Shown here: positions 1-11,484 of the stretch, piece by piece
Numbering within the stretch: the first letter of the stretch is position 1
Layout of the letters: every line of letters starts with the position of its first letter
Source of the DNA: Escherichia phage phiEc_1
Sequence record: LC768462.1
Length of the DNA: 64,000 nucleotides
Reading direction: 5' to 3' (one strand)
Position numbers and translations under genes: made by a program
The notes under the pieces: generated by a model
Database searches by the model: none
Seen by the model: the letters and a program-made list of their open reading frames with translations, nothing else
Told to the model about the DNA's origin: nothing

Positions 1-1
1 G

Positions 2-226
2 CATAATTACGGTGGCGTTACGTTATCCTTTGATGAATCAGCCGACGTTGGCTATTTGTCTTTTCTTTCCAAAGGTGAGATACAAAATATACGCTTTCCT
101 ATTGTCTGTTTAGTGCAAGATTATATAACCGTTGGGAAGTATTTAGCCCAACGCGGGATTCTCCTGTCGCTGGAAGAAGTGGAACAGATTAGCGTAGCAT
201 TTTTTGGTGAGGATAGCAACCAATGA
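2..226 (+). CDS. hypothetical protein, 3' fragment (5' end upstream of window)
   Basis: Open frame from window edge to TGA 224-226; stop overlaps next ATG (ATGA). Confidence 0.3.
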   Translation, partial: HNYGGVTLSFDESADVGYLSFLSKGEIQNIRFPIVCLVQDYITVGKYLAQRGILLSLEEVEQISVAFFGEDSNQ

Positions 227-309
227 TTCATGATTATTTTTGGCGTTGCTTGTTCGTTGTTACAGTGGCGTTATTCGTCGCTGATATGCTTTATTCTTAC
301 ATTCTCTAA
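223..309 (+). CDS. small hydrophobic peptide (28 aa)
   Basis: ATG overlapping upstream stop, GAGG 10 nt upstream, hydrophobic product; short, so uncertain. Confidence 0.25.
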   Translation: MIHDYFWRCLFVVTVALFVADMLYSYIL

Positions 310-325
310 CTAAAGGTTTATTATC

Positions 326-691
326 ATGGGTGTTATCAAGTTTGTAGTGAAAGTATTTGTAGGCTTCTTTCTGGTTGTTCTCCTGTTAGGTGTCCTGCTG
401 TCATCTATGGGTAGCGTTAAGGCTGCAACATTTTCCCCTGATACGGTTGACGGTTTACAGTGCACCTATTTGATAGAAAACTATGAAACTGGTAAAAAGT
501 CACCTAAAGTTATTATTTTACATGTGAATGATTTCGAACATGTACAATCATACGATAAAACTATTCAACTGGTAAATGAAACTACCGGTAAACAAATTAC
601 GGTGGATCACTTGATGCGCTCATCGTTGACGCTCTTTGATGAGTCCATGAATGAAATGGCATCCGGTAACGGTCAATGTGTAAATCCATAG
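326..691 (+). CDS. secreted/periplasmic protein, unknown function
   Basis: ORF track; N-terminal hydrophobic signal-peptide-like segment ending SVKA. Confidence 0.55.
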   Translation: MGVIKFVVKVFVGFFLVVLLLGVLLSSMGSVKAATFSPDTVDGLQCTYLIENYETGKKSPKVIILHVNDFEHVQSYDKTIQLVNETTGKQITVDHLMRSSLTLFDESMNEMASGNGQCVNP

Positions 692-766
692 GCTTAATCT
701 TTCTCCTGTATTGTGCCGTAGTCATGCCTATGGTCATAATTTATCTGATTCTCTAATCCTTCCTGT

Positions 767-794
767 AAGCCTCCTAGTGAGGCTTTTCTCTTTT
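767..794 (+). terminator. rho-independent terminator
   Basis: Stem AAGCCTC / GAGGCTT with 5-nt loop then TTCTCTTTT. Confidence 0.6.
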
Positions 795-950
795 ATGAGG
801 TGATTGTATGCCTTACTCCCTTTTAGCTCGTTGTGATGCGTTTTAGGCCGCTAAATATCGCTTTACAAGCCGTTTTCTATGATGTATCGCGTGCGCCTGC
901 TCTTTTACCTTCCTATAGTGAAAAAGTTTAAAATAATTTGCTTTACCCTA

Positions 951-978
951 TTGCAACCTCATCTGATTAGCGTATACT
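951..978 (+). promoter_or_regulatory. sigma70-type promoter (TTGCAA-N16-TATACT)
   Basis: Hexamers and spacing read directly. Confidence 0.5.
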
Positions 979-1025
979 TCATTTCATCGGGTACGATGTA
1001 AAACATACAAGGCAAGAAATTGCCC

Positions 1026-1039
1026 CGCTCTTTAAAAAT
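1026..1039 (+). promoter_or_regulatory. boxA-like antitermination element
   Basis: CGCTCTTTAAAAAT; matches rrn boxA GCTCTTTAACAA and lambda nutL boxA CGCTCTTAAAAA. Confidence 0.55.
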
Positions 1040-1075
1040 CAGGCTAGAAAGTGAAAATATTCTCAAAAAAGAGTA

Positions 1076-1104
1076 TTGACACCGGAAAAAGCCTGATATA
1101 TAGT
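1076..1104 (+). promoter_or_regulatory. strong sigma70-type promoter (TTGACA-N17-TATAGT)
   Basis: Consensus -35, 17-bp spacer, near-consensus -10. Confidence 0.7.
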
Positions 1105-1134
1105 GAGCATAGTCAGCGATGACTTAAAAAATCC

Positions 1135-1148
1135 CGCTCTTTAAAAAT
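1135..1148 (+). promoter_or_regulatory. boxA-like antitermination element
   Basis: CGCTCTTTAAAAAT, about 25 nt downstream of predicted start site of promoter 1076-1104. Confidence 0.55.
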
Positions 1149-1406
1149 ATGATTTGTCTTACGGGTGGCGGCGACGTCATTACTATAAGGCGCTCAGTTA
1201 ATTGGTAGAATTGATTCCTGATTCATACGTGACGCAGGCGGACAATAAGCAATATCAATAAGCCTTATTTGTTCGATACTTTCAAAAGATTAATGCTTGA
1301 AAGCGCACTAGATTCCCTGAAAGACAAATCAGACTTATCATCTTGCCCTTTCGCATAGATTCACGCGAGATAAGGGAAAGGAATTAAAAGAAGATGATAA
1401 AAAGAG

Positions 1407-1435
1407 TTGCAAACGTGGTTAAAGTAGTCCATACT
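1407..1435 (+). promoter_or_regulatory. sigma70-type promoter (TTGCAA-N17-CATACT), weaker
   Basis: Hexamers and spacing read directly. Confidence 0.35.
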
Positions 1436-1594
1436 AACCACAAGTTAGCAAAACATCGCTAACTAGTTCCCAAATCAACGTATCGCGGGAAAGGTGGCAC
1501 ATAGTGCAGCGATTAGTTCAGGTGTAGGCGGCCTGTTAATGAATCAGTAAGCCTTCAATGTGACAGTGATTAGCAGACACTTTAAAAGGCTAAA

Positions 1595-1608
1595 CGCTCT
1601 TTAACAAT
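1595..1608 (+). promoter_or_regulatory. boxA-like antitermination element
   Basis: CGCTCTTTAACAAT; 12/12 match to rrn boxA core GCTCTTTAACAA. Confidence 0.6.
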
Positions 1609-1708
1609 ATGAGTCATAAGTTAAGCCTCACCGCTTAATCTTCAATCAAATAAAGCTGATTGATATATCCTCCCAATAGCGGGAACGACGAAAAAGATTA
1701 AAAAGCGG

Positions 1709-1737
1709 TTGACAGCGAAAACAACATGATTCATAAT
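1709..1737 (+). promoter_or_regulatory. strong sigma70-type promoter (TTGACA-N17-CATAAT)
   Basis: Consensus -35, 17-bp spacer, 5/6 -10. Confidence 0.65.
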
Positions 1738-1827
1738 GAGCACTCACTAAGCAAATCATCGCTTCAGTGAAAAGCGTAACAACGGCTAACAGTTGCATAG
1801 TGTGAGAAAGCACACTGATAGATTTAC

Positions 1828-1841
1828 CGCTCTTTAATAAT
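1828..1841 (+). promoter_or_regulatory. boxA-like antitermination element
   Basis: CGCTCTTTAATAAT. Confidence 0.5.
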
Positions 1842-2660
1842 TTAAACATTCTCCTATATCGGTTGAATATGCTTGATGATAATAACCATCGGAAAGCATA
1901 CCAGATAAAACGGCGTAAAACTCCCTAAATTATCAGGGTAAACAGTTTTACATTCCCTTACTGGAAACGTCACCATTGATAAACGGATTCATTGAGTACA
2001 CGCAAAGACTTGAGCTAATCGCCCACGGTTAAGGGTAGCGGCGGTCATTGCTAACACGGTGCTACAGTGAAAGAAGTTAATCAGGGTAGGCAATCCCGAC
2101 GAATTAACGCTCAATTGAGAGCGGCGGGGAGTGGTTAAAAAGTGGCAAATTGCTATTTAACAATAAGGTTTAGTGTGAACGTTTACAATGTGAACGGCTT
2201 GAGATTCATCTTATGATGAAAGTACATAGTCGGTTTATGTAGTAAACTTGCCGAAAGATATAAAACGTCGGAACATTAGACGGTCAATGACTCTTTCGCA
2301 ATAGTATCCCGTAGTGGGCGATGACTAGCGATTGAGAGTTGATATAAAAGGATAGGCGAGAGCGAAAGCAAAGTAAACGATATTGCCGACGGTTACAATA
2401 ACGTAACTAATTAGAGTCGGACGCACTGCCTTATTGTGATGATTGATCATCGCTATCAGGTCGGCTTCGTTTATAGCGACTAATTAAAGATACCAGATGA
2501 AACATCACGGATAAGGGGGCGGCAAGGTTAACTCCTGATAAGACCGCCCCGCTTACCTATAACTACTTAACAACGAGTGGTTATAGTTAAGTTAATAGTG
2601 ACTTAAACAAGCTCATAGAGAGCGGGGCAATAGCGCCCTTACAATTGAAAGGTGAATATT

Positions 2661-3560
2661 ATGGCTAAAATCTTTACTCTGGTTAACGAATCCGGTTTTA
2701 ATGCTCTGGCTAACAACATTCGCAGTAATAACGCGGCGATCAAACAAGATGTTTCTAACTTCCTGTTAGGTCATTTGCAGCACTTTCGTAGCAACGGTAA
2801 GAAGTTAGATGTATTGCAGGCGGCGGTTGACTTCCTGTTAACCGAACGTTTCCGCGATATGGATGTTATTGCCACCGCGATTACTTTCTTAACTCCTATC
2901 AAGTTTAACACCGATGCGGCAAATGGTCGTAAAAAGTGGATTAATCTGGAAGGTGAGGCGAAAGCTAAAGAAGATGCGAAAGAAGCGCAAATTAAGGCCA
3001 AAATGGAACAAAACCGCGCTCGCTGGTCAAACGCTTTCGAAAACTTTGCATTAGGTCGTGCAATTGAAGTGGATAATCCTAACTTCTACAAAGGTTGCAA
3101 TGACAACGTGGCGGCACACCTGCAAATTCCGGCGAAAAACAAGGAAGATTTTAATCAGGATATTTACGCTTTGGTTGAACGCTTGAATGCAATCCGTATT
3201 GAAGCCAAATTACTGGCTGATGAGCGCAACGGCGCAACCAGCGATAACACTATCGCCCTGAGTGAAGAAGTTGGGAAGGTTAAAAAGTCCTTTGATTCAC
3301 TCATCAAGAAAATCACGGCCTCGACGGTAGCGATCTCGGATGATTATCTGATGAACGCATCAAGCAAGGAATTAGAATCACTCGATTCATACGCTGATGA
3401 AATGGAAAAGACTGTTGCAGCTATGCAGGAGAAGTTAGAAAGTCTGCGCGGTCGTATCTCTTCAACGGTTGCTACCCGTAGCGAACAAGCGGCGAAAGCA
3501 GAAGAGGAAGAAGTATTGCGTAAAGCGGCTGAAATTATGGCGGCACGTCAAGCGGCATAA
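2661..3560 (+). CDS. early protein, unknown function (first gene after leader)
   Basis: ORF track frame; ATG 2661 with AAAGGTG 7 nt upstream; helical, Lys/Glu/Ala-rich C-terminus. Confidence 0.7.
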   Translation: MAKIFTLVNESGFNALANNIRSNNAAIKQDVSNFLLGHLQHFRSNGKKLDVLQAAVDFLLTERFRDMDVIATAITFLTPIKFNTDAANGRKKWINLEGEAKAKEDAKEAQIKAKMEQNRARWSNAFENFALGRAIEVDNPNFYKGCNDNVAAHLQIPAKNKEDFNQDIYALVERLNAIRIEAKLLADERNGATSDNTIALSEEVGKVKKSFDSLIKKITASTVAISDDYLMNASSKELESLDSYADEMEKTVAAMQEKLESLRGRISSTVATRSEQAAKAEEEEVLRKAAEIMAARQAA

Positions 3561-3582
3561 GTAAGACAATTTAAATAAACAT

Positions 3583-3619
3583 AAGGCGCTATCTTAACGG
3601 GTAGCGCCTTTTCTTTTAT
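3583..3619 (+). terminator. rho-independent terminator
   Basis: Stem AAGGCGCTA / TAGCGCCTT then TTCTTTTAT. Confidence 0.65.
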
Positions 3620-3671
3620 CAGTGCATTGATTCAGTGCATTAATCAAAGAATCTAATTAAAGGTGACGATC

Positions 3672-3890
3672 ATGTTAATTACACATACCACGATCTATAG
3701 GAATCTTGTCAACGGTCAACATTACCGACTATCTAAAAAGTATGGCGTTGAATGTAAATGTGTTATTACCGGTGAATGGTATCCGTCGCCAATGAAGATT
3801 GAAACGTTGGAACGTGAAGCGATCAGCTATATTATCACGCAAGAAACAACGTTAGGTCGTATCTTAAGAAAGTTGGGATTGAGAAAATGA
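3672..3890 (+). CDS. small early protein
   Basis: ORF track frame; ATG 3672 with AAGG 9 nt upstream. Confidence 0.5.
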   Translation: MLITHTTIYRNLVNGQHYRLSKKYGVECKCVITGEWYPSPMKIETLEREAISYIITQETTLGRILRKLGLRK

Positions 3891-4111
3891 TATTCAGTAG
3901 CAATTTTGGCAAGTGTCCTATTTGTGAGAAACATCGCAGCACGGGAAACCATCGCAAATGTAGTAAGATATTACAGCGCCAACGTGATAACAAACATTGG
4001 GATACTGTACACACTAACCAGCGTAAAGAAGAAGTTAGGAAAATGGCTGTTAAAGCGTCATTTGCTCAATCCACCCGTATTGAACACATTCAAAGGTATC
4101 AAGCATTATGA
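3887..4111 (+). CDS. small early protein with CxxC-x-H zinc-finger-like motif
   Basis: ATGA overlap with upstream stop and with downstream start; CPICEKH motif. Confidence 0.5.
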   Translation: MIFSSNFGKCPICEKHRSTGNHRKCSKILQRQRDNKHWDTVHTNQRKEEVRKMAVKASFAQSTRIEHIQRYQAL

Positions 4112-4317
4112 TCACTAACATTTCAGAATTTAAGAAAGCACCTTCCCGCTTGTTAGGCCGTCGTGTTGTATATCTTTACAGCAATAAAGGTAAATGTACA
4201 ACTGGACGAATTACAACGGTGAGTAGTGCTAACAAGAAACTGTTAAAGTTATGCGTAGCTATGGATGACGGTACAATCCTGCTACGCAGTTGGAAATCGT
4301 TTAGTTTACTAGATTAA
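4108..4317 (+). CDS. small early protein
   Basis: ORF track; ATGA start/stop overlap. Confidence 0.5.
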   Translation: MITNISEFKKAPSRLLGRRVVYLYSNKGKCTTGRITTVSSANKKLLKLCVAMDDGTILLRSWKSFSLLD

Positions 4318-4386
4318 GTTATTTGTTCAAGCCTATCGCCTTGATGGGCTTGCCCGATATAACTTATCACTGAAAGGAATAAGATT

Positions 4387-4830
4387 GTGGCTAAATCTAA
4401 AATCAGCATGAAGGGCGGGCGTTGTTTTGCTATCTCTGAACTAGAGAAAGAGAAACCGAAGGCAACTAATCACGTTAGTAAGCGTAGTTTAAAACGTCGT
4501 GCTGCAAAGGCTGAGGCTGAATCCCATGTTCCTTCCAGTGTGGCAAAGCGTGTAGGCCATCGTGTCCATCGGGCTGATGCGTTGTTGTTGGCTGATCATA
4601 AACGTTCTTTGTTAAAGAGCGGGGGAGCTAAAACAGAAGAGGAGAAGAAGTTAGAAATCTTCTGTAATGGTCGCACCCGTGGTAAACAGAAGTTTAAAGG
4701 TAGCACGAAAGACCCGCAGGCTTTCCCTAAGACAAGCCAGTGTGCACCTGATGTTTTCTACGCAGATAGTAAACACAAGTGGGGCGTTGAAAAATACATT
4801 GACCCCATCAAAGAGGCAAGGGTTAAGTAG
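4387..4830 (+). CDS. basic protein, possibly nucleic-acid binding
   Basis: ORF track; GTG start with AAGGA 8 nt upstream; Lys/Arg-rich. Confidence 0.55.
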   Translation: MAKSKISMKGGRCFAISELEKEKPKATNHVSKRSLKRRAAKAEAESHVPSSVAKRVGHRVHRADALLLADHKRSLLKSGGAKTEEEKKLEIFCNGRTRGKQKFKGSTKDPQAFPKTSQCAPDVFYADSKHKWGVEKYIDPIKEARVK

Positions 4831-4900
4831 TAGGAATATAGCCCCCTCTTTTAGTACTATGACGCTCTTTCTGTAGCGTCGTGCCCTCTCCCCATTTGAA

Positions 4901-4927
4901 GCTTCCGCATAGCCGCCTTTGAGCGGC
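4901..4927 (+). terminator. rho-independent terminator
   Basis: Stem AGCCGC / GCGGCT then TTTTGCGTT. Confidence 0.5.
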
Positions 4928-5047
4928 TTTTTGCGTTGCTGTAAGTGCATTTGCGAGTGTATTTATAGCAACGGTCATGTGTTGCTTTCAGGTTTGCCCC
5001 GGCTACGGCTGGGGCTTTTTTATGTCTACTGTATAGGAATCTATGAA

Positions 5048-5782
5048 ATGAAAGCAATTGTATTATCCTCAATCCTAGCTCTGTCCGTAATGGCATCGCC
5101 TGTTTTTGCTAAAAGTGGAAACAATGGCAATGGCAATGGAGGTTGTGGTGTAGGTCAATCTACCAATGGTTGCGGTATCGGAGATTGGTTTAAAGGTGAA
5201 AAAGGTGATCAGGGAGAGAAAGGCGACACTGGCGCTAATGGCATTGATGGTAAAGATGGCATTGATGGTAAAGATGGCATTGATGGTAAAGATGGCATTG
5301 ATGGTAAAGATGGCATTGATGGAGAACAAGGCGCTCAAGGTGAAAAAGGTGATTCTGGTGCAGATGGTAAGAAAGGCGAAACTGGCCTAACTGGTGCAGC
5401 AGGTTTGAATGGCGTTGACGGATTAAATGGCAAAAACGGTAAAGATGCAGATATGTCTGCCGTTAATGCTAACGCCAAATCCATCAAAGCTCTGGAACAA
5501 TCCACCAATAAACGTTTTGCTTCTTTGCAAAAACAAGTAGACCGTAACCGTGATCATGCCTCTGCTGGTATTTCTGGCGTGGCTGCAATGGCTAACATCC
5601 CGCAAGTAAGTCAAGGATCTGCTTTCTCTGTTGGTGCTGGGGTAGGTGCTTACGATGGTGAATCTGCTCTTGCTATTGGTGTTAGTGCTCGTTTCAATGA
5701 AAACTTAGTAACTAAAGCATCAGTGGCAATGACTTCAGAGAGTGACGCTGTTCTGGGCGCTGGTGTAAGTTACGAGTGGTAA
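5048..5782 (+). CDS. trimeric-autotransporter-like protein: signal peptide, collagen-like Gly-X-Y stalk, YadA-type C-terminal anchor
   Basis: Signal peptide MKAIVLSSILALSVMASPVFA; ~30 Gly-X-Y triplets; C-terminus ...GISGVAAMANIPQV...LAIGVSARFNENLVTKASVA...GAGVSYEW matches YadA anchor pattern. Confidence 0.7.
   Translation: MKAIVLSSILALSVMASPVFAKSGNNGNGNGGCGVGQSTNGCGIGDWFKGEKGDQGEKGDTGANGIDGKDGIDGKDGIDGKDGIDGKDGIDGEQGAQGEKGDSGADGKKGETGLTGAAGLNGVDGLNGKNGKDADMSAVNANAKSIKALEQSTNKRFASLQKQVDRNRDHASAGISGVAAMANIPQVSQGSAFSVGAGVGAYDGESALAIGVSARFNENLVTKASVAMTSESDAVLGAGVSYEW
5240..5323 (+). repeat. perfect 18-bp tandem repeat (GGCATTGATGGTAAAGAT, about 4.6 copies) encoding GIDGKD
   Basis: Identical copies at 5240, 5258, 5276, 5294 plus a partial copy. 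Confidence 0.9.
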
Positions 5783-5789
5783 GATAGTG

Positions 5790-5816
5790 CCTCTCCCGAA
5801 AGGGAGGGGTGTTTCT
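5790..5816 (+). terminator. rho-independent terminator
   Basis: Stem CCTCTCCC / GGGAGGGG, GAAA loop, T-rich tail. Confidence 0.55.
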
Positions 5817-5892
5817 ATAAGCATCTTTTCGAGGGTGTTTATTGAAACAACAAAACAGGAGGTAGCAAGTTCTGATAACAACGGCACAGCTA

Positions 5893-6282
5893 ATGTTGAC
5901 ATTGACTATTTATTATGAGGCAGGGAATCAGCCAACCGCATGTAAGGCTTTAGTTGCGGATACCGTGATAAATAGAATGGCCCAACGAAAACTGACCGCT
6001 GAACAGGTGATAAGACAGAAGAACCAGTTTGAGTGGATTCCGGTACTATTAAAACAGGAGAAACCTTATAAACGTTATGTAAAGCTGATTCGTGATAAAA
6101 ATCCGATGACTAAGCAAGCCATTGGAGAAAGCGAGCGACTTGCTAAACGTGCCCTTAAGAAGAATTATGTTCCGCTGTACAGTGGGACTTACTTTCAGAG
6201 TAAGAGCGAAGGGGTGCCAAAATGGTATGCCAATCCTATGTATTGTGGTGATTTAGTGTTCGATAATAGCTCTAGGGAATAA
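5893..6282 (+). CDS. SleB/CwlJ-like cell-wall hydrolase domain protein
   Basis: TIYYEAGNQP...VADTVINRM...QFEW resembles Hydrolase_2 motifs; start uncertain (see findings). Confidence 0.5.
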   Translation: MLTLTIYYEAGNQPTACKALVADTVINRMAQRKLTAEQVIRQKNQFEWIPVLLKQEKPYKRYVKLIRDKNPMTKQAIGESERLAKRALKKNYVPLYSGTYFQSKSEGVPKWYANPMYCGDLVFDNSSRE

Positions 6283-6482
6283 TCACTAGTGCCAGATTTG
6301 ACAAACTAAATTCCTTTATAAACCAACCACTTAGTAAATTTATCGAAAAAGATGGTAGTATTCTGGGACTATGGGTAATGCTCTGTATATAGACCCTTTG
6401 AAAATTTCTTAGAAAATAAGTTTACTAAATATAACTTACTTAAATAATATTACTTTTAATCTCTGATAAAGGGTAAAATGAT

Positions 6483-6779
6483 ATGACTTTAGAAGTATAT
6501 AAATTCCTTTTTGTAAGCTGTTTAACTATCAGCGTTATAGGATTTATTGTTCTCAGAAACAAAGCAGCAAGCTGGGAAAGAATGTATAAATCCCTAGTTC
6601 GAGTGGATGAGATGTATAATGAGAAAGTTAAAGTAACACTCAACGATCTTATTATGCAAGTTGAAGACAGAAATAAGCGTCTTCAGAACCTCAACCATGA
6701 AGTATTACGACTTGCTCGTGCTAATGAAGACTTACGAGTGGCTATTGCTAAGCAGCAGGAGATTAACAGTGAAAGTTAA
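6483..6779 (+). CDS. membrane-anchored coiled-coil protein
   Basis: ORF track; N-terminal TM segment then heptad-rich region. Confidence 0.5.
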   Translation: MTLEVYKFLFVSCLTISVIGFIVLRNKAASWERMYKSLVRVDEMYNEKVKVTLNDLIMQVEDRNKRLQNLNHEVLRLARANEDLRVAIAKQQEINSES

Positions 6780-7005
6780 TATTAAATCCGATCGTACAAT
6801 GCTTCGCTTAAATAACATGAAGCCGGGCGTTCTATTTGAGCGTAAAGACTCTCTTTATATTAGAACCGACACACTATACGCAGATAACTATGTGAACTGT
6901 GTTGATGTGGTAACTGGAAAGCTCATGCCTTTTAAACGGGATGAAGTCTGCCAAGTACGTAGTGATCTTCACATAACCAACATAGAGGCTAAAGATGAAG
7001 ATTGA
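6769..7005 (+). CDS. small early protein, paralog family A
   Basis: GTG 6769 with AGGAG 8 nt upstream; shares G-x-F ... N/V-x-x-G ... P pattern with seven other ORFs. Confidence 0.5.
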   Translation: MKVNIKSDRTMLRLNNMKPGVLFERKDSLYIRTDTLYADNYVNCVDVVTGKLMPFKRDEVCQVRSDLHITNIEAKDED

Positions 7006-7246
7006 TCTTGAGATGAAAGCTAAAGAATTGTGTGTGGGTGATTTGAAACTTGGTGATGTATTCCAAGTTAAGGCAACATGTATTGATTATTACATGATCG
7101 TTCAGTTATATACACCACATGTGTCAGAGACTGATCTTCGGAATGGTTGTGTAGTGCTCAGTTTAAGCACCAATCAAGTAATGAAGCTAGATTCAAACTT
7201 ACCTGTTTCAGTTATCCATGATGCAGTAATTACCAATCGGAAGTGA
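6995..7246 (+). CDS. small early protein, paralog family A
   Basis: ORF track; family pattern. Confidence 0.5.
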   Translation: MKIDLEMKAKELCVGDLKLGDVFQVKATCIDYYMIVQLYTPHVSETDLRNGCVVLSLSTNQVMKLDSNLPVSVIHDAVITNRK

Positions 7247-7461
7247 ATATGAACATTGAAAAGAAGGTTGTTGACGAGGCTGTTCAGTTACGATCTCTTG
7301 AAACACATGATGTATTTGTGTGGGGAGGCAGTCTGTTTCAGAAATCTGCTTATGCTGTAGAGGGCGGGGTTCGTTGTTTTAATATCTTCAACAATGAGAT
7401 GCAAATCCTTCCTAACTTCGCTCATGTTAATAAACTTATCCACCTTTCTATATATCAATAA
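7243..7461 (+). CDS. small early protein, paralog family A (divergent)
   Basis: ORF track; ATGA overlap. Confidence 0.45.
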   Translation: MNMNIEKKVVDEAVQLRSLETHDVFVWGGSLFQKSAYAVEGGVRCFNIFNNEMQILPNFAHVNKLIHLSIYQ

Positions 7462-7471
7462 GGGCAATTAG

Positions 7472-7690
7472 ATGGAAATTAAAGTAGTTGATTATCCTAA
7501 ATATGCAAATGCAGAGGACGTTAAAGGTGGTGATGTTTTCTCTTATGATAAACGTTTCTGGCTGATGCTAGAAGATAAAACCCCTGATGGTTTGTGTAAG
7601 GCTGCTAACTTGAGCAGTGGTTCTGTTGAAGTCTTCGGTCTATCAACCACTGTTATGCCACGACCTGATCTGTGTTTATCCCAAAAGTAA
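7472..7690 (+). CDS. small early protein, paralog family A
   Basis: ORF track; GGDVF...FW...NLSSGSV...MPRPD. Confidence 0.55.
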   Translation: MEIKVVDYPKYANAEDVKGGDVFSYDKRFWLMLEDKTPDGLCKAANLSSGSVEVFGLSTTVMPRPDLCLSQK

Positions 7691-8048
7691 CACCGACTTA
7701 TAGCCCTTGTGTTTATCAGAGGGCTATGTGAGGGTGTTCCTCATTAACTTATTAATTCAGGCATATGCCACACCGCTAGGGAGAGCTTGCTCGAACATCC
7801 GGTGTTAGACTAAAACCTGTTAATTTTCGAAAGACTTTCCGATATGTAGGGGTACGTATTGGTTTGGGATTCAGGAGACTTCCTAGGGGTAGGGAGTCTT
7901 CACCAGTTGGAATAAGAGATAGCTCTAGAACCTGAACTCTTAGGCAGAGAAGGTCGGCAATGAGTACGCGGTCAGGGTTAGTCTACTGACTAGGGCTATC
8001 CCTTATATCAACTGGCAATAATGCCTCCACTAACAAAGAGAGATAGGT

Positions 8049-8189
8049 ATGAAAGTATCAACCAAACGTATGAACCGCCCTGAACGTATGGATGCAGTAG
8101 CTAATGGTGCTCTGAAACTGGAAGGCTTTTGGATTCATGCAATGTCAGCCATCCGTAACAAGCAAGGTAATTGGACGTATAACAGTTAA
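8049..8189 (+). CDS. small protein (46 aa)
   Basis: ATG 8049 to TAA 8187-8189, immediately followed by a terminator; below ORF-track size cutoff. Confidence 0.35.
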   Translation: MKVSTKRMNRPERMDAVANGALKLEGFWIHAMSAIRNKQGNWTYNS

Positions 8190-8197
8190 TAAATAAA

Positions 8198-8227
8198 AGG
8201 CTGCCTTCGGGTGGCCTTTGTTGTTTT
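8198..8227 (+). terminator. rho-independent terminator (UUCG loop)
   Basis: AGGCTGCC-TTCG-GGTGGCCT then TTGTTGTTTT. Confidence 0.7.
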
Positions 8228-8270
8228 AATTAAGGGACAACTCTTACTTAAACTAACAAGAGGTGCTTAT

Positions 8271-8624
8271 ATGAGACGCATGGTTAAAGATTGGGTCACT
8301 AAATCAGGTCTTCGTGCTGTGATTATGCACATGAACGACTCCCATTTTTGTGGATATGTAGAGCTACCAGACAGCTTAAAACATAAAAACTTCACCGGAT
8401 ATAACGGAAAGGAAGAGGTTTGTTATGTAAGTGTTCATGGTGGTGTCACATGGCAAGACACCCTTGAAGAGATGGGTGGTTTAGATACAATCGGATTTGA
8501 TTGTGCCCATGCAGGTGATAAGACACGGTTCAACCCTAACGGGATACCAAGAACAGAAGAGTTCTGCGTTAATGAATGCGAACAATTGGCTGAACAACTA
8601 AGAGATCTAGAATCAAATGTCTAA
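8271..8624 (+). CDS. hypothetical protein
   Basis: ORF track frame; ATG 8271 with AAGAGGTG upstream (track start at 8211 lies inside terminator). Confidence 0.55.
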   Translation: MRRMVKDWVTKSGLRAVIMHMNDSHFCGYVELPDSLKHKNFTGYNGKEEVCYVSVHGGVTWQDTLEEMGGLDTIGFDCAHAGDKTRFNPNGIPRTEEFCVNECEQLAEQLRDLESNV

Positions 8625-8793
8625 GCAAATAATCAAACATACGCAAGCTGGTTACTCTTATGTCAACTCTCCTTGCTGCGGTGCTCGTATTAGTCTGGTT
8701 AAGGAAGAGGTTCGTATTGTTCAGCGTGGCGCTACTGTTGTTCGTTCATGCTGTGTCTGTGGTAATGACATTTTTATCAAAGGTAAAGTATGA
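8617..8793 (+). CDS. small Cys-rich (zinc-ribbon-like) protein
   Basis: 58 codons; CC...CCxC pairs; overlaps neighbours. Confidence 0.4.
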   Translation: MSKQIIKHTQAGYSYVNSPCCGARISLVKEEVRIVQRGATVVRSCCVCGNDIFIKGKV

Positions 8794-9041
8794 AAAACTT
8801 CCAAGCTGCACCAATCACTAAAGTGATCGAAGTTGATGGTATAATGATGACTGTTCCTCTGAACACTCGTTACATTGCAATTGACAAGATGGGTTATGTA
8901 TGGGCTTGGAAGATCAAGCCTAGTTATAACGCATTGTTTGATGAGTTTGTTTGTACTGGAACTTACAGTCCCACATTCTTAGGTTTATTTGGAGAATTTG
9001 ATGGTAAGCATAAAATCATCACACTCCCTGCTTGTGCTTGA
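8790..9041 (+). CDS. hypothetical protein
   Basis: ORF track; ATGA overlap. Confidence 0.5.
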   Translation: MKNFQAAPITKVIEVDGIMMTVPLNTRYIAIDKMGYVWAWKIKPSYNALFDEFVCTGTYSPTFLGLFGEFDGKHKIITLPACA

Positions 9042-9048
9042 GGTTAAT

Positions 9049-9282
9049 ATGAAAGGAAAAGAGGTTAAATATTTTGGCGAAGTTGTTAAAGTGGACAGCT
9101 CTATAAGATATTTAGCAACTGATAGCAACGGCGAGGTATATGGGTTTACCCATAAGCCAGAAATTCGTGGGTATGCTTGGGCACTTCCTTATGGGACTCC
9201 GTTCGAGACGGGAGGAGCTGTTTATCTTAACGATAATGGACCTCTGTTTGCATGGAAAACATCTCTCGTTGAGGTGGTGTAA
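9049..9282 (+). CDS. hypothetical protein
   Basis: ORF track frame; ATG 9049 after GAGG. Confidence 0.5.
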   Translation: MKGKEVKYFGEVVKVDSSIRYLATDSNGEVYGFTHKPEIRGYAWALPYGTPFETGGAVYLNDNGPLFAWKTSLVEVV

Positions 9283-9284
9283 TT

Positions 9285-9449
9285 ATGTTCAAGTGGTTTA
9301 AACGTCTATTCCATCTGCATGATTGGGAGACAATAAAAGAAATTCGTTTACACATATATAATGAGATCGGTCAAATAGAAGACACAGGTACTCGTTATAT
9401 ACTTCGATGTAAAACATGTGGTCATATCACCAAACGAGATATGATCTAA
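9285..9449 (+). CDS. small protein with C-terminal CxxC
   Basis: GAGGTGG SD then ATG 9285; 54 codons. Confidence 0.4.
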   Translation: MFKWFKRLFHLHDWETIKEIRLHIYNEIGQIEDTGTRYILRCKTCGHITKRDMI

Positions 9450-9456
9450 ATCTTAT

Positions 9457-9532
9457 GCGCTCTTAGCTCAATGGATAGAGCAGTAGCCTTCTAAGCTATT
9501 GGTTACAGGTTCGAGTCCTGTAGGGCGCACCA
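9457..9532 (+). tRNA. tRNA-Arg(UCU): tRNA-Arg (anticodon UCU, reads AGA), encoded CCA
   Basis: Cloverleaf folded by hand: 7-bp acceptor stem, D stem GCTC/GAGC, anticodon loop CTTCTAA, T arm ACAGG-TTCGAGT-CCTGT, discriminator A, CCA. Confidence 0.9.
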
Positions 9533-9551
9533 AATCTAATAGGAGGTAATT

Positions 9552-9851
9552 ATGAGTTGGGGTGGTGTAATATCCTTAATCTGTATCTTCCTTGTCTGCA
9601 TAGCCCTTACAGGCTGCGTACAGAGCCGTCCTGATGGATGGTGTGCAGTAGCAGTGGAAGGTGTTTGTGTTTCTCGCTGGCATAAGGGTGAGAAGATTCC
9701 TTCTGGTGAAATTGATATGCGATGGAACGGAGCAACCTGTTCTAATGCTAACCCTTCTATCAACGAAGAGAAGTCTACACCGGATAATGTTGTTATTGAT
9801 ACAGCATTGTGGTGTGGTGGCTCTACGATTACAACCGGTAAGGAGTGGTGA
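9552..9851 (+). CDS. lipoprotein (Cys-rich)
   Basis: AGGAGG SD; signal peptide with lipobox LTGC (LICIFLVCIALTGC). Confidence 0.65.
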   Translation: MSWGGVISLICIFLVCIALTGCVQSRPDGWCAVAVEGVCVSRWHKGEKIPSGEIDMRWNGATCSNANPSINEEKSTPDNVVIDTALWCGGSTITTGKEW

Positions 9852-9852
9852 T

Positions 9853-10050
9853 ATGAATTACACATCTACAAAGGTGTTAATTGATTCGATTAATAACTCC
9901 TCAGAAACTGTACAGGAGCGTTTAATACAAGATGTTAGCAATGACATTAAGTTCTTTGTTAAGAGCCGCCTGTTAGGTTCTAAGGCTTATTACAGAGCTA
10001 AAGCAGAGCTTACAAAGAGGATGTTTCTTTTACATGGTTTGGTATATTAA
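9853..10050 (+). CDS. hypothetical protein
   Basis: ATG 9853 with AAGGAG upstream; same frame as track ORF 9661..10050 but non-overlapping start. Confidence 0.5.
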   Translation: MNYTSTKVLIDSINNSSETVQERLIQDVSNDIKFFVKSRLLGSKAYYRAKAELTKRMFLLHGLVY

Positions 10051-10059
10051 GGAACTTAT

Positions 10060-10281
10060 ATGAAACTAGACTCTAAGCAGTCACTTAAAACTGTTGAATT
10101 GTCCACGCTGCCAAACGGAAGTATTTTTGGTCATGATAAACACTTCTGGATTAAAACAGACATCATAGACGATGGATATATCACCTGTGTCAATCTTTGG
10201 AACGGCTCAGTGGATGGCTATCGCCCTAGTGCAAAAGTAGTCCCTCAGCCTGATGCAAAGGCTACAGGTTTAGTTTACTAA
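10060..10281 (+). CDS. small early protein, paralog family A
   Basis: ORF track; PNGSIF...FW...NLWNGSV...VPQPD. Confidence 0.55.
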   Translation: MKLDSKQSLKTVELSTLPNGSIFGHDKHFWIKTDIIDDGYITCVNLWNGSVDGYRPSAKVVPQPDAKATGLVY

Positions 10282-10290
10282 GGAGCCTGT

Positions 10291-10464
10291 ATGAGTTGTT
10301 TTGGTGGCGGTGAAGTAGATGACGATGATGACATGGAATCCAACGGTACATGTCCTGATTGTGGATGTGAGACGTTTGATGGGGTGTCTGTTTATCCTGC
10401 CTGTAGTTACTCACCAGTGATCTGTAAAACATGTGGTGATCAGCCGTGTGACCAATCTTGTTAA
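10291..10464 (+). CDS. small acidic Cys-rich (zinc-ribbon-like) protein
   Basis: AAGGAG SD; CPDCGC...CKTCGD. Confidence 0.4.
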   Translation: MSCFGGGEVDDDDDMESNGTCPDCGCETFDGVSVYPACSYSPVICKTCGDQPCDQSC

Positions 10465-10473
10465 GAGAATCTT

Positions 10474-10605
10474 ATGACTGAAGAATTTTTAGAGTGGTTT
10501 GGGAACACCTTCAAAGATTATCTATTCTCTCCAGAAGACTTTGAAGAACTGAAAACCTACACTTGGTTGGCTTGGAGAGATAGCCGACGAAAGTTGAACA
10601 AGTAA
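10474..10605 (+). CDS. small protein (43 aa)
   Basis: Short ORF between neighbours; weak support. Confidence 0.25.
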   Translation: MTEEFLEWFGNTFKDYLFSPEDFEELKTYTWLAWRDSRRKLNK

Positions 10606-10616
10606 GAGACGATTAA

Positions 10617-10874
10617 ATGGGTTTACTTGATATTTTTATCTCAGTTTACTTTATTGGAGTATTCCTTTCTGTCTTAGTGATGAAACTGCTATACAAGAAA
10701 GGTCTACTAAAAGGGGTCATTACAACAGGGTCTACCAGCTCTGAACCTGATGAGATGATGGTTGTTCTCTTAATTGTGTTGTGGCCTATCTCAATACTGT
10801 CAGGAGTTTTTTATCCAATAGGTTGGCTTCTGTTTAAAGCATATGATGCAGTTATGCATTTTATCTTTAAGTAA
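10617..10874 (+). CDS. membrane protein (two TM helices)
   Basis: ORF track; two hydrophobic segments. Confidence 0.55.
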   Translation: MGLLDIFISVYFIGVFLSVLVMKLLYKKGLLKGVITTGSTSSEPDEMMVVLLIVLWPISILSGVFYPIGWLLFKAYDAVMHFIFK

Positions 10875-11164
10875 TATCGTGAAGGATTCTTACGAGAGTC
10901 CTTTGAGATAGGACTTCAGATCTCCTATCAAACTAACATTCATGTAACTAGCCCATAAGGGCGTTACCCTTTAATAACCCAGCCCACTAAGGGGGCGGGA
11001 GTTTAGTGCTGGATTAGCATAACGCTTATTCCTACAAAGGCAACCGATTGTTAGATCTTACATGCAATATTAACTAATAGGATAAGGGAGGATTCGTCCC
11101 CTCCCCCTATTTTATTGAATCTTTATCTAAGCAAGTCTTATATAAACGTTTAATTGGAGGATGT

Positions 11165-11476
11165 ATGAAAGCACGAAGAACTATATGGACTCCGATGCAG
11201 ATTGAAAATCTTCGGAGACTGATCAAAGAGTACTCGGTTCAAGAAGTTGCTCAGATTATGAATGTAACGGAGAATGCTGTTAACACAGCTTGCACTAAAT
11301 TCGGAATATCAAGAGCTTCAATCCGAGTCAAGTGGTCTAAAGAAGAAGATCAGTTCCTTATCCGTAATGCCGGGTTTATGTCTATTCAGAGAATGGCTGA
11401 CATGCTTGGTAGAAGTTATGCTGCTGTACAGAACAGGGCATGTATGCACCTTAATATTAGCCTCAAACTTAAATAG
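11165..11476 (+). CDS. DNA-binding protein with two tandem HTH-like repeats
   Basis: Internal repeat W-[ST]-x-E-x-[LI]...S...A...G-[RI]-S. Confidence 0.5.
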   Translation: MKARRTIWTPMQIENLRRLIKEYSVQEVAQIMNVTENAVNTACTKFGISRASIRVKWSKEEDQFLIRNAGFMSIQRMADMLGRSYAAVQNRACMHLNISLKLK

Positions 11477-11484
11477 GAATCAAT

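What the first reader, a model, noticed from the sequence alone, without database searches (positions are those of the whole stretch)
700..2650. About 2 kb untranslated early leader with tandem sigma70-type promoters and four rrn/lambda-type boxA elements
No convincing ORF lies between the terminator at 767-794 and the first early gene at 2661. The region holds at least three near-consensus sigma70 promoters (951-978, 1076-1104, 1709-1737). It also holds four copies of CGCTCTTTAA[A/C/T]AAT (1026, 1135, 1595, 1828), which match the rrn boxA core GCTCTTTAACAA and lambda nutL boxA CGCTCTTAAAAA; a fifth degenerate copy (CGCCCTTACAAT, about 2634) sits just upstream of the RBS of the first gene. A long untranslated transcript would normally be terminated by Rho, and boxA recruits NusB/S10 to suppress that. 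The phage may therefore be borrowing the host rRNA antitermination system to read through a long leader, which could itself encode structured RNA. No uniform boxB-like hairpin follows the boxA copies, so an rrn-type (N-independent) mechanism seems more likely.
Basis: partly seen in the sequence, partly recalled or inferred. Interest (0 to 1): 0.7.

Follow-up and report, generated by a model that had tools for sequence, protein, structure and literature searches.

The report
Phage early leader: boxA-guarded structured RNA
The 1.9-kb gene-free stretch at the head of this phiEco32-like coliphage's early operon carries four host-type promoters, each with its own ribosomal-RNA-type boxA signal, and they feed into a roughly 0.9-kb conserved folded RNA that matches no described family and whose function is unknown.

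Summary
The window is a phiEco32-like (Gordonclarkvirinae) coliphage. All relatives examined keep a gene-free gap of about 1.9 kb before the first early gene (the gp124 homologue).

- **boxA copies.** GCTCTTTAANAA occurs exactly at 1027, 1136, 1596 and 1829 on the + strand. The whole window holds 5 exact matches against 0.02 expected. All four copies fit the gamma-proteobacterial consensus GYTCTTTAANA.
- **Promoters.** Each copy lies 31-160 nt downstream of a sigma70-type promoter.
- **Relatives.** 20 relatives carry 3-5 such promoter-boxA modules. T7 has the identical 14-mer 63 nt after promoter A3.
- **Structured RNA (new).** The stretch from about 1744 to 2660 is as conserved as the adjacent gene. 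It folds with z = -11. It has 265 consensus pairs, 72 with compensatory changes, against 34 +/- 3.5 in shuffles. G-U outnumbers A-C 594 to 46, which points to + strand RNA. Seven held-out metagenome sequences keep 97-99.6% of the pairs. Rfam has no match.
- **Geometry.** boxA1, boxA2 and boxA4 are each followed directly by the 5' strand of a domain-closing helix, as in rrn operons.
- **Correction.** The "fifth boxA" near 2634 is one strand of a covarying hairpin.

Nus-factor recruitment and the RNA's function are inferred, not shown.

The parts
767..795 (+). Intrinsic-terminator-like hairpin plus T tract that ends the upstream small-gene operon
   Evidence: Terminators are annotated at the homologous place in 4E8 and SU7.
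951..978 (+). Promoter P1: TTGCAA, 16-nt spacer, TATACT
   Evidence: 9 of 12. The hexamers are kept while the spacer varies among relatives.
1011..1024 (+). Hairpin GGCAA-GAAA-UUGCC directly 5' of boxA1, in the position of rrn boxB
   Evidence: Read from the sequence. The scan picked up the same stem on the - strand. SU7 and NC-B have GGCAC-UUA-GUGCC directly 5' of their second boxA copy (2487).
1026..1039 (+). boxA1: CGCTCTTTAAAAAT
1040..1095 (+). Helix CAGGCU/AGCCUG that starts right after boxA1 and encloses a covarying hairpin (about 1056-1077) overlapping the -35 of P2
   Evidence: Three phages (4E8, Bas93, LAMP) have UAGGCU/AGCCUA, a compensated change; four copies in three phages (MN05, NJ01, pEC-N1203) have a C-A mismatch. 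The inner hairpin shows several compensated variants.
1076..1104 (+). Promoter P2: TTGACA, 17-nt spacer, TATAGT
   Evidence: 11 of 12.
1111..1124 (+). Hairpin AGUCA-GCGA-UGACU at the start of the P2 transcript, 5' of boxA2
1135..1148 (+). boxA2: CGCTCTTTAAAAAT
1150..1331 (+). Cassette 2: a self-contained RNA domain of about 180 nt, closed by an 11-bp stem (1150-1160 with 1321-1331). It is present or absent among relatives and is shared with the unrelated phage PJNS034.
   Evidence: 51 pairs, 7 with double changes, including two in the closing stem in PJNS034.
1336..1399 (+). Conserved long hairpin (UAUCAUCUU...AAGAUGAUA) just upstream of P3
   Evidence: pairwise identity 0.86. The stem is read from the sequence.
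1407..1435 (+). Promoter P3: TTGCAA, 17-nt spacer, CATACT. At the same place, SU7-type relatives have TTGACA-16-TAGAAT, Bas93 has TTGACA-17-CATACT, and phiEco32 and EP335 have TTGACA-16-TAAGCT.
1436..1594 (+). Cassette 3: a variable insert between P3 and boxA3. It is present in the window, 4E8, ECBP2, KBNP1711, MN05 and two metagenome contigs, and absent in phiEco32 and SU7.
1595..1608 (+). boxA3: CGCTCTTTAACAAT, identical to the T7 14-mer and 12 of 12 to the rrn core
   Evidence: PMC2724277.
1709..1737 (+). Promoter P4: TTGACA, 17-nt spacer, CATAAT, with an A-rich UP-like tract upstream
   Evidence: It is conserved in all 20 relatives. A homologous promoter exists in PJNS034 and TacPo2.
1799..1816 (+). 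Covarying hairpin (AGUGUG/CACACU) 5' of boxA4
   Evidence: 3 of 6 pairs with double changes.
1828..1841 (+). boxA4: CGCTCTTTAATAAT. Together with its 5' flank it forms an 18-nt block (1820-1837) that is invariant in 27 sequences.
1841..2139 (+). RNA domain I, closed by helix 1841-1853 with 2127-2139, which begins at the last base of the boxA4 14-mer
   Evidence: the closing helix has 4 covarying pairs.
2140..2158 (+). Hairpin containing the invariant boxA-like GCTATTTAACAA (2152-2163). It has A in place of C at position 4 and is paired, so it is probably not a working boxA.
   Evidence: Position 4 is critical (PMC5725501), as in lambda boxA16 (PMC2724277).
2160..2437 (+). RNA domain II, closed by the invariant helix ACAAUAAGG/CCUUAUUGU. 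It holds the inner helices richest in covariation (for example 2247-2252 with 2355-2360, 6 of 6 pairs covarying).
2438..2639 (+). Series of 3' hairpins up to the ribosome-binding site.
2647..2657 (+). Shine-Dalgarno region of the first early gene. It is predicted to pair with 1822-1832, the 5' flank of boxA4. This helix is not tested by covariation.
2661..3560 (+). First early gene (gp124 homologue, 299 aa, unknown function)
3583..3620 (+). Strong intrinsic-terminator-like hairpin after the first gene. It is the first of several that early transcription must pass.

Best explanation
The gap is the transcribed, untranslated head of the phage's early operon, built like a small rrn operon. Four host sigma70 promoters (P1-P4) fire rightwards. 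Each transcript carries, within its first 30-160 nt or so, an rrn-type boxA. The transcripts run, with no terminator in between, through modular folded RNA domains: optional cassettes 2 and 3, then the conserved core of about 0.9 kb from 1744 to 2660. They then continue into the first early gene and beyond.

Inferred mechanism:
1. boxA RNA binds host NusB-NusE(S10).
2. Together with NusA, NusG and SuhB, and possibly S4, this converts RNA polymerase into the rrn-type antitermination and chaperone complex.
3. That complex keeps Rho off a long RNA that no ribosome covers.
4. It also holds boxA, and the 5' strand of the domain-closing helix next to it, at the RNA exit channel until the 3' strand emerges. 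This would help the large domains fold.
5. The modified polymerase then continues into the early genes.

Shown here: absence of coding, conserved promoters, statistically and evolutionarily supported boxA copies, the + strand RNA structure, and the boxA-to-closing-helix geometry.

Inferred: Nus binding, protection from Rho, chaperoning, and what the RNA does.
For: Identity of the phage and of the gap.
- The window is a phiEco32-like phage and the gap is universal in the group.
- There is no coding signal.

boxA.
- 5 exact matches against 0.02 expected.
- All four copies fit GYTCTTTAANA (PMC5725501) and the rrn form UGCUCUUUA rather than the lambda form CGCUCUUA (PMC2724277).
- There are 85 copies in 22 loci. 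69% have a promoter match scoring at least 9.5 within 220 nt upstream, against 2.9% of control positions.
- boxA4 with its flank is one of the two longest blocks invariant in 27 sequences.
- T7 has the same CGCTCTTTAACAAT 63 nt after promoter A3 and before gene 0.3.

Structure.
- Conservation of 1600-2650 equals that of the gp124 gene.
- The core folds with z = -11.0 on the + strand against -4.45 on the - strand.
- There are 265 consensus pairs, 72 with double changes, against 33.9 +/- 3.5 in shuffles (0 of 500) and 7-12 in slid controls. 99.0% of cells are paired.
- G-U counts 594 against A-C 46 on the + strand.
- Held-out sequences keep 97-99.6% of the pairs, with 4-18 double changes each.

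Geometry.
- boxA1, boxA2 and boxA4 are each followed immediately by the 5' strand of a closing helix.
- This mirrors boxA followed by boxC and the leader-trailer helix in rrn, and the 'delivery' model for that helix (PMC10250234, PMC8632103).

Precedent and need.
- boxA protects long untranslated CRISPR array transcripts from Rho (PMC7665894).
- No terminator-like site lies on the + strand between 795 and 3583.
- No strong promoter lies between 2600 and 21094, while several strong terminator-like hairpins lie on the + strand there.
Against: - No transcript ends, Nus binding or Rho data exist for this phage group in the literature I could read. The two primary phiEco32 papers were not available.
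- Highly structured RNA may resist Rho on its own, as reported for rRNA (PMC5725501). Anti-Rho may therefore not be the main role.
- Phage 7-11 has a long, stable leader of about 1.15 kb with no boxA. boxA is therefore not mandatory for such leaders.
- The rrn-type complex is not known to defeat strong intrinsic terminators, and several follow the first gene.
- A phage-encoded cofactor cannot be excluded, because the adjacent early proteins all have unknown function.
- The long-range helix that would sequester the Shine-Dalgarno sequence, and the helix after boxA3, have no covariation support.
Confidence: 0.62

Rival explanations
1. Translational control of the first gene. The boxA-Nus-RNAP loop, together with the leader fold that pairs 1822-1832 with the Shine-Dalgarno region at 2647-2657, mainly sets or delays translation of gp124. 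This would resemble lambda nutL with the N gene, or suhB. The big RNA would be a regulatory 5' UTR rather than a product.
For: - The long-range helix closing onto the SD is predicted by RNAalifold and by both the MFE and centroid folds.
- Bas88, which has a rearranged RBS region, keeps complementarity (GGUAAAU).
- Nus factors repress translation of suhB and of lambda N through an RNA loop, in lambda across a structured leader of about 200 nt (PMC5725501).
- There is no terminator between the RNA and the gene.
Against: - The helix is invariant, so covariation does not test it.
- About 830 nt with roughly 36 helices, conserved as strongly as the protein gene, is far more than any known 5' UTR switch needs.
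- Cassettes 2 and 3 and boxA1-3 lie far upstream of the gene.
- The RNA is conserved at about 89% where the gp124 protein is 79% identical.
Confidence: 0.15
2. Nus-factor sink. Four or five strong promoters each produce boxA RNA early in infection, which titrates NusB/NusE/SuhB away from the host rrn operons as part of host shut-off. Antitermination of phage RNA would be secondary.
For: - There are several boxA copies per genome, each behind its own strong promoter.
- NusB/NusE bind boxA with nanomolar affinity (PMC2724277).
- phiEco32 shuts off host transcription (PMC8948821, PMC4281155).
Against: - This does not explain the conserved 0.9-kb structure or the boxA-to-closing-helix geometry.
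- T7 manages with one copy.
- The phage already encodes a sigma70 inhibitor, gp79 (PMC8948821).
Confidence: 0.07
3. DNA-level element. The repeats are iterons, or the region is a replication origin or packaging-related site, and the promoters provide transcriptional activation.
For: The region is gene-free, lies about 2-4 kb from a genome end, and has direct repeats and strong promoters.
Against: - The compensatory changes include many G-U pairs that would be A-C on the other strand (594 against 46). This indicates single-stranded + strand RNA.
- All repeat copies share one orientation, downstream of promoters.
- The repeat equals the host and T7 boxA.
Confidence: 0.05
4. Overlooked small proteins. 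The region encodes short peptides, as some deposited annotations suggest.
For: Some annotators-127 aa ORFs here (MN05, E20-1, pEC-N1203, CHD5UKE1).
Against: - The ORFs are not conserved in length or frame.
- Indels are not multiples of three.
- There is no codon periodicity.
- Most of the called ORFs are on the - strand.
Confidence: 0.03

Closest known systems
E. coli rrn operon leader (tandem P1/P2, boxB-boxA-boxC, leader-trailer helix, rrn antitermination complex)
   Same: - Tandem strong sigma70 promoters with A-rich upstream tracts.
- A hairpin 5' of boxA.
- A boxA core identical to rrn (GCUCUUUAACAA in copy 3, and in copy 4 of many relatives, which continues as AAUUUA as rrn does).
- boxA followed directly by the 5' strand of a long-range helix that closes a large folded RNA.
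- A long untranslated, highly structured product.
   Different: - Each promoter has its own boxA (4-5 per leader), not one shared copy.
- The RNA is unrelated to rRNA (no E. coli match).
- It runs straight into protein-coding genes.
- Closing helices are 11-15 bp, against 25-40 bp for the leader-trailer helix.
- No RNase III processing is shown.
Phage T7 early leader (promoters A1, A2, A3, boxA, RNase III site R0.3, gene 0.3)
   Same: - A lytic coliphage with tandem strong host promoters near the genome end.
- The identical 14-mer CGCTCTTTAACAAT in the untranslated leader, before the first early gene.
   Different: - T7 has one boxA shared by three promoters.
- Its leader is about 175-430 nt, against 0.9-1.7 kb here.
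- T7 has no large conserved multi-domain RNA.
boxA upstream of CRISPR arrays (Stringer et al. 2020, PMC7665894) and in the suhB 5' UTR (Baniulyte et al. 2017, PMC5725501)
   Same: An rrn-type boxA placed at the start of a long untranslated RNA to recruit Nus factors without a phage N protein. The copies here fit the same consensus, GYTCTTTAANA.
   Different: Those are host loci with one boxA each. Here the element is carried by a virulent phage, is multiplied, and is coupled to a large folded RNA.
Lambda nutL/nutR (N-dependent antitermination)
   Same: A phage-borne boxA in early transcripts. The CGCUCUU...AAAAAU flavour of copies 1 and 2 resembles the nutL boxA with its spacer.
   Different: - Lambda boxA lacks one U (CGCUCUUA).
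- It is followed by a conserved boxB hairpin and needs N.
- Here the copies have the rrn UUU, no conserved 3' boxB, and no recognisable N.
Large 'ornate' non-coding RNAs associated with phages (GOLLD, ROOL; from my own knowledge, both are in Rfam)
   Same: - Several hundred nucleotides long.
- Many covarying helices.
- Phage-borne.
- Function unknown or only recently approached.
   Different: - No sequence or structure match to any Rfam model.
- This RNA is a promoter-proximal leader fused to an mRNA.
- It carries boxA signals.

Membership tests
rrn-type (N-independent) boxA Nus-factor recruitment signal | RNA sequence matching the gamma-proteobacterial consensus GYUCUUUAANA, with the rrn-type CUUUA | tested here: met
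   All four copies match (GCTCTTTAAAA twice, GCTCTTTAACA, GCTCTTTAATA). Consensus from PMC5725501; rrn and lambda forms from PMC2724277. The elements at 2152 (C4 to A) and 2634 fail.
rrn-type (N-independent) boxA Nus-factor recruitment signal | Lies in the nascent transcript, on the sense strand and downstream of a promoter | tested here: met
   All four copies are on the + strand, 31-160 nt after conserved sigma70-type promoters. Across 22 loci, 69% of 85 copies have a strong promoter within 220 nt, against 2.9% of controls. The promoters are predictions: there are no start-site data for this window. PMC4281155 reports three sigma70 promoters in this spacer for SU10 and phiEco32.
rrn-type (N-independent) boxA Nus-factor recruitment signal | Binds NusB-NusE and assembles NusA, NusG and SuhB on RNA polymerase | not testable with these tools
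   Needs binding assays, or ChIP/CLIP during infection.
rrn-type (N-independent) boxA Nus-factor recruitment signal | Suppresses Rho-dependent termination, or aids RNA folding, in a boxA-dependent way | not testable with these tools
   Needs boxA mutants, nusB/nusE hosts and bicyclomycin.
rrn-type (N-independent) boxA Nus-factor recruitment signal | Works without a phage-encoded cofactor | tested here: inconclusive
   There is no conserved boxB 3' of boxA, and no N- or Q-like domain in six nearby proteins. All of them are of unknown function, so a novel cofactor is not excluded.
Lambda-type nut site | boxA (CGCUCUUA), a spacer of about 8 nt, then a conserved boxB stem with a GNRA-like pentaloop bound by N | tested here: not met
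   The copies have UUU. The sequences 3' of the four copies differ, and they begin long-range helices rather than a common hairpin.
Conserved structured non-coding RNA (generic criteria) | Compensatory base changes above controls, strand asymmetry, thermodynamic stability, and no conserved ORF | tested here: met
   - 72 of 265 pairs have double changes, against 33.9 +/- 3.5 in shuffles and 7-12 in slid controls.
- G-U 594 against A-C 46.
- z = -11.0 against -4.45 on the other strand.
- Held-out sequences keep the pairs.
- No ORF signal.
Any described RNA family (Rfam 15, 4227 models) | Covariance-model match at or near the gathering score | tested here: not met
   The best hits score 21.6 bits or less against gathering scores of 34-167, with E-values of 0.24 or more.
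Stand-alone small RNA gene | Its own promoter and its own terminator | tested here: not met
   Promoters are present, but no terminator-like site lies on the + strand between 795 and 3583. A separate RNA would need processing, which was not tested.

The most novel reading that the evidence does not exclude
The leader is not merely a leader. It is a new class of large phage RNA of about 0.9 kb, with optional cassettes of about 160-180 nt. It would be made like a miniature ribosomal RNA: host rrn-style promoters, a boxA per unit, closing helices delivered by the Nus complex and perhaps cut by RNase III. It would then act in trans as a scaffold, sponge or decoy during host take-over or against bacterial defence. 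The cassettes are exchanged between unrelated phages (Gordonclarkvirinae and PJNS034), which would fit accessory, arms-race functions. The BASEL study describes this phage group as unusually resistant to the defence systems it tested (PMC11990801).
Probability: 0.3. Interest if true: 0.85.

Novelty: new variant of a known kind. Interest (0 to 1): 0.68.

Why it matters
1. It would be a clear case of a virulent phage copying the whole logic of host rRNA synthesis (promoters, boxA, closing helices) for an RNA of its own. That gives a compact and genetically tractable system for studying how the Nus complex protects and folds long non-coding RNA.

2. It adds an unannotated RNA of about 0.9 kb with many covarying helices to the very short list of large bacterial and phage non-coding RNAs. 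It occurs in a common coliphage group for which K-12-infecting isolates exist (BASEL Bas86-Bas94), so deletion, probing and pull-down experiments can start straight away.

3. Practically, genome annotations of about 100 deposited phages either leave this region blank or fill it with spurious small ORFs.

Tried and rejected
- **Rfam.** Scans of 1-6000 and 800-2700 at permissive E-values gave only noise.
- **tRNA/tmRNA.** None in the leader.
- **Host origin.** No match in 5,426 E. coli genomes.
- **gp124 and the first gene of PJNS034.** Not detectably related.
- **More distant homologues through gp124.** Only the same roughly 97 phages, and 5 IMG/VR contigs that are mostly the same isolates.
- **A conserved 19-mer in metagenomes.** It gave 8 useful contigs and 4 chance hits: three marine and L032.
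- **A shared GGUAGCGG...UAACACGG core in Kuravirus, PJNS034 and 7-11.** I suspected this by eye. nhmmer gave E = 4.6, and a covariance model of 1965-2095 found nothing outside the family, so I rejected it.
- **The element at 2152 as a fifth boxA.** Rejected. It has C4 to A and is paired.
- **The element at 2634 as a boxA.** Rejected. It is a strand of a covarying hairpin.
- **Composition.** No C-rich, G-poor rut-like tract stands out.
- **Tandem-boxA contigs.** Two non-Kuravirus viral contigs have no relatives in the phage collection, so they could not be placed.
- **Literature.** The two primary phiEco32 papers (PMC2587145, PMC3275717) are not held. No paper in the library links Kuravirus or phiEco32 with boxA. 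One literature query was badly designed and wasted.
Full report
**What the window is.** The region 700-2700 matches 97 phage records, nearly all from Escherichia or Shigella. The best matches are 98-99% identical (FS2B, EcM-vB1, SkaterBoy_Bas90), and phiEco32 itself is 93% identical. These phages are Gordonclarkvirinae podoviruses (Kuravirus, Suseptimavirus, Nieuwekanaalvirus). In phiEco32 the homologous stretch is the 1.9-kb gap between gene 125 and gene 124. The same gap is present in every relative I fetched. In 4E8 it lies about 2.3 kb in from the direct terminal repeat. It comes after a small promoter-driven operon that ends in a terminator, which corresponds to 767-795 here.

**Checking the observation.**
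- No + strand ORF longer than 40 aa lies between 800 and 2660.
- Across 20 relatives the longest open frames vary from 48 to 98 aa, mostly on the - strand. Variable alignment columns show no codon periodicity (115/127/119). The small ORFs some depositors annotate here are therefore not supported.
GCTCTTTAANAA occurs 5 times in 64 kb against 0.02 expected, and four of these are on the + strand inside the leader. De novo repeat finding recovers the same family.
- The promoters at 1076-1104 and 1709-1737 match 11 of 12 consensus positions, and 951-978 matches 9 of 12. Only six + strand sites in the whole window reach 11 of 12.
- A generic promoter scan of the region is not above chance on its own (12 against 13.8). 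The case for the promoters rests on the comparative data below.

**Promoter-boxA modules.**
- All 20 Gordonclarkvirinae leaders carry 3-5 copies of [C/T]GCTCTTTAA[A/C/T]AA.
- Printed in register, each copy sits behind a TTGACA-type promoter whose hexamers are kept while the spacers and flanks drift. SU7-type relatives have TTGACA-16-TAGAAT at that position.
- Of 85 boxA copies in 22 loci, 69% have a promoter scoring at least 9.5 within 220 nt upstream, against 2.9% of 2000 control positions.
- In the window the distance from the -10 hexamer to boxA is 48, 31, 160 and 91 nt.
- All four copies fit the consensus GYTCTTTAANA that Baniulyte et al. derived for gamma-proteobacteria (PMC5725501). They have the rrn form (UGCUCUUUA), not the lambda form (CGCUCUUA, one U fewer) (PMC2724277).
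- Copy 3 is 12 of 12 to the rrn core. In many relatives copy 4 reads CGCTCTTTAACAATTTA, the rrn boxA plus its spacer (PMC2724277 Table 1).
- Short hairpins lie 5' of boxA1 (1011-1024), boxA2 (1111-1124) and boxA4 (1799-1816, which covaries). That is the rrn order boxB then boxA, not the lambda order (PMC8632103).

**The leader is a conserved folded RNA.**
- Pairwise identity across relatives is 0.8-0.92 over 1600-2650. This equals the gp124 coding region, while 1150-1330 and 1440-1590 are present in some relatives and absent in others.
- SU7-type phages keep the RNA at about 89% nucleotide identity while the gp124 protein is 79% identical.
- An alignment of 20 leaders (A2, window 1590-2680) gives an RNAalifold consensus of 265 pairs. 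Of these, 72 show changes on both sides that keep the pair.
- In the pair-count test, 99.0% of cells are paired against 94.1% after shuffling. There are 72 covarying pairs against 33.9 +/- 3.5 (0 of 500 shuffles), and 7-12 when partners are slid by 1-3 columns. The covariation score is 0.225 against 0.125.
- In an independently recomputed 320-pair consensus fold, G-U pairs outnumber A-C 594 to 46. The best fold of the opposite strand gives 296 to 163.
- The single window sequence 1744-2665 folds with z = -11.0 on the + strand and -4.45 on the - strand.
- Seven metagenome contigs that played no part in deriving the structure keep 97-99.6% of the pairs. Each has 4-18 double compensatory changes relative to the window.
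- Together these results show a + strand RNA structure under selection. It is not a DNA element and not a spacer.

**Architecture in window coordinates.**
- After P4 (start near 1744) come small hairpins, then boxA4 (1828-1841).
- Domain I spans 1841-2139 and is closed by 1841-1853 with 2127-2139.
- A hairpin follows at 2140-2158.
- Domain II spans 2160-2437. It is closed by the invariant ACAAUAAGG/CCUUAUUGU helix and is the part richest in covariation.
- Nine hairpins follow, at 2438-2639, then the ribosome-binding site and the ATG at 2661.
- Upstream, cassette 2 (1150-1331) is a self-contained domain closed by an 11-bp stem. That stem carries two compensatory changes in the unrelated phage PJNS034.
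- No + strand terminator-like site lies between 795 and 3583. Unless the RNA is processed, it is the 5' part of the early mRNA.

- The 'fifth copy' CGCCCTTACAAT is the 3' strand of hairpin 2624-2628 with 2635-2639, which covaries GC to CG.
- A better-looking extra copy, GCTATTTAACAA at 2152, is invariant in all 27 sequences. It has A at the critical position 4 (compare suhB C4T in PMC5725501 and lambda boxA16 in PMC2724277), and it is base-paired.

**Geometry that suggests a mechanism.**
- boxA1, boxA2 and boxA4 are each followed at once by the 5' strand of a helix whose 3' strand lies about 50, 170 and 290 nt downstream. The helices are 1040-1045 with 1090-1095, 1150-1160 with 1321-1331, and 1841-1853 with 2127-2139.
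- The last two have clear compensatory support. The first has mixed support.
- In rrn operons boxA is followed by boxC, which is part of the 5' strand of the leader-trailer helix enclosing 16S rRNA (PMC10250234).
- The rrn elongation complex fastens the nut-like element next to the RNA exit. boxC can then be 'delivered' to its complement far downstream (PMC8632103).
- The phage modules reproduce that arrangement on a smaller scale.

**Most likely mechanism (inference).**
1. Host sigma70 RNA polymerase starts at P1-P4.
2. Each nascent RNA presents boxA to NusB-NusE.
3. With NusA, NusG and SuhB, the polymerase becomes an rrn-type complex. That complex resists Rho on 0.9-1.7 kb of untranslated RNA and promotes closure of the domains.
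4. It then proceeds into the early genes.

The need for processivity is plausible. From 2600 to 21094 there is no + strand promoter at or above 10 of 12. Promoter-like sites are depleted (24 against 40.8 +/- 6.0). Terminator-like hairpins are enriched (31 against 12.5 +/- 3.4), including strong ones at 3583, 4911, 4996, 8196 and 13100. The use of boxA to carry polymerase through long untranslated RNA has a direct precedent in CRISPR arrays (PMC7665894).

**Caveats.**
- rRNA is reported to resist Rho on its own, with Nus factors serving folding and assembly (PMC5725501).
- The rrn complex is not known to override strong intrinsic terminators.
- Salmonella phage 7-11, a distant relative, has tandem early promoters and a stable leader of about 1.15 kb (z = -5.15) with no boxA.
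- The adjacent early proteins are all of unknown function, so a phage cofactor cannot be ruled out.

**Comparison with what is known.**
- The tandem sigma70 promoters in this spacer were already described for SU10 'like phage phiEco32' (PMC4281155). That part is not new.
- I found no paper in the searchable library that mentions boxA, antitermination signals or a non-coding RNA for this phage group. The two primary phiEco32 papers could not be read.
- T7 carries the identical 14-mer CGCTCTTTAACAAT at 812-825. That is 63 nt after the A3 start and about 100 nt before gene 0.3. So a promoter cluster plus an rrn-type boxA in an early leader also occurs in the best-known coliphage.
- Two unclassified 65-kb phages, PJNS034 (E. 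coli) and TacPo2 (Pantoea), have the same design in a 1.6-1.8 kb gap. They share the boxA3-to-P4 module with Kuraviruses (nhmmer E = 3e-8 and 3e-5). PJNS034 also shares cassette 2, but neither has domains I or II.
- Two uncultivated viral contigs also carry two exact rrn boxA copies about 110-130 nt apart in ORF-poor DNA.
- What appears new is one boxA per promoter, the size and conservation of the folded RNA, its modular cassettes, and the rrn-like boxA/closing-helix geometry.
- The RNA matches no Rfam family and nothing in E. coli.

**Verdict.** The antitermination signal itself is a new member of a known kind. The boxA-guarded, multi-domain RNA is a new variant whose function is open. I rate interest at 0.68. 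A specialist would be surprised by a covariation-rich RNA of about 0.9 kb at the head of a common coliphage's early operon, and isolates that infect K-12 make every prediction testable. The score is held back because the promoters were known, boxA in phage leaders has precedent (T7, lambda), and no function can yet be assigned.

Noticed in passing
window 4609-4620 (- strand): A fifth exact GCTCTTTAACAA lies on the minus strand, inside the + strand ORF 4387-4830 (codons LLKS). It is improbable by chance (0.02 expected for the whole window), but no promoter is evident upstream of it on that strand.
   Followed up: no
window 4919-5782 (+): An ORF with a signal peptide and collagen-like G-x-y repeats (GIDGKD five times). 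A strong terminator-like hairpin lies just before its start (4911-4928) and another near its 5' end (4996-5015), in the early region.
   Followed up: no
window 9457-9532 (+): tRNA-Arg (anticodon TCT), the only tRNA in the window.
   Followed up: no
window 2600-22000: Sigma70-like sites are depleted (24 against 40.8 +/- 6.0) and terminator-like hairpins are enriched (31 against 12.5 +/- 3.4). No + strand site at or above 10 of 12 occurs before 21094, so about 18 kb of early genes appear to depend on the leader promoters.
   Followed up: partly
window 326-691 (+): The 121-aa protein upstream of the leader is labelled 'terminase' in relatives and in PHROG 13168. It has an N-terminal hydrophobic segment and no Pfam match, so the label looks doubtful.
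   Followed up: no
window 1150-1331 and 1436-1594; L011 4001-4200: Two RNA cassettes in the leader are present or absent among close relatives. Cassette 2 also occurs, with compensatory changes, in the unrelated 65-kb phage PJNS034 but not in its relative TacPo2. This suggests that promoter/boxA/RNA modules are exchanged between phage groups.
   Followed up: partly
L049 2365-3417 (- strand) plus L048 (Salmonella phage 7-11): Phage 7-11 has three or four tandem early promoters, then an ORF-free leader of about 1.15 kb before gp151 (which starts MAK, like gp124). The leader folds with z = -5.15 but has no boxA within one mismatch.
   Followed up: partly
L047 812-825 (phage T7): T7 carries CGCTCTTTAACAAT, identical to window copy 3, between promoter A3 (750) and gene 0.3 (925). 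It is not annotated in the RefSeq record.
   Followed up: yes
L041 3470-3589; L043 3450-3582; L045 1285-1417: Uncultivated viral contigs of 34-44 kb carry two exact GCTCTTTAACAA copies about 110-130 nt apart in ORF-poor DNA. They have no relatives in the phage collection. Two further hits (L042, L046) are coding repeats.
   Followed up: partly
window 1898-1911 and 2490-2503: A conserved, mostly unpaired motif AUACCAGAU(A/G)AAAC occurs twice in the structured RNA. It is a candidate binding site for a protein or an RNA.
   Followed up: no
window 2145-2168: GCAAATTGCTATTTAACAATAAGG is the longest block invariant in all 27 sequences. It contains a boxA-like element with C4 to A, and it forms a hairpin 3' strand plus the 5' strand of the helix that closes domain II. 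It could be a relic boxA or a different recognition site.
   Followed up: partly
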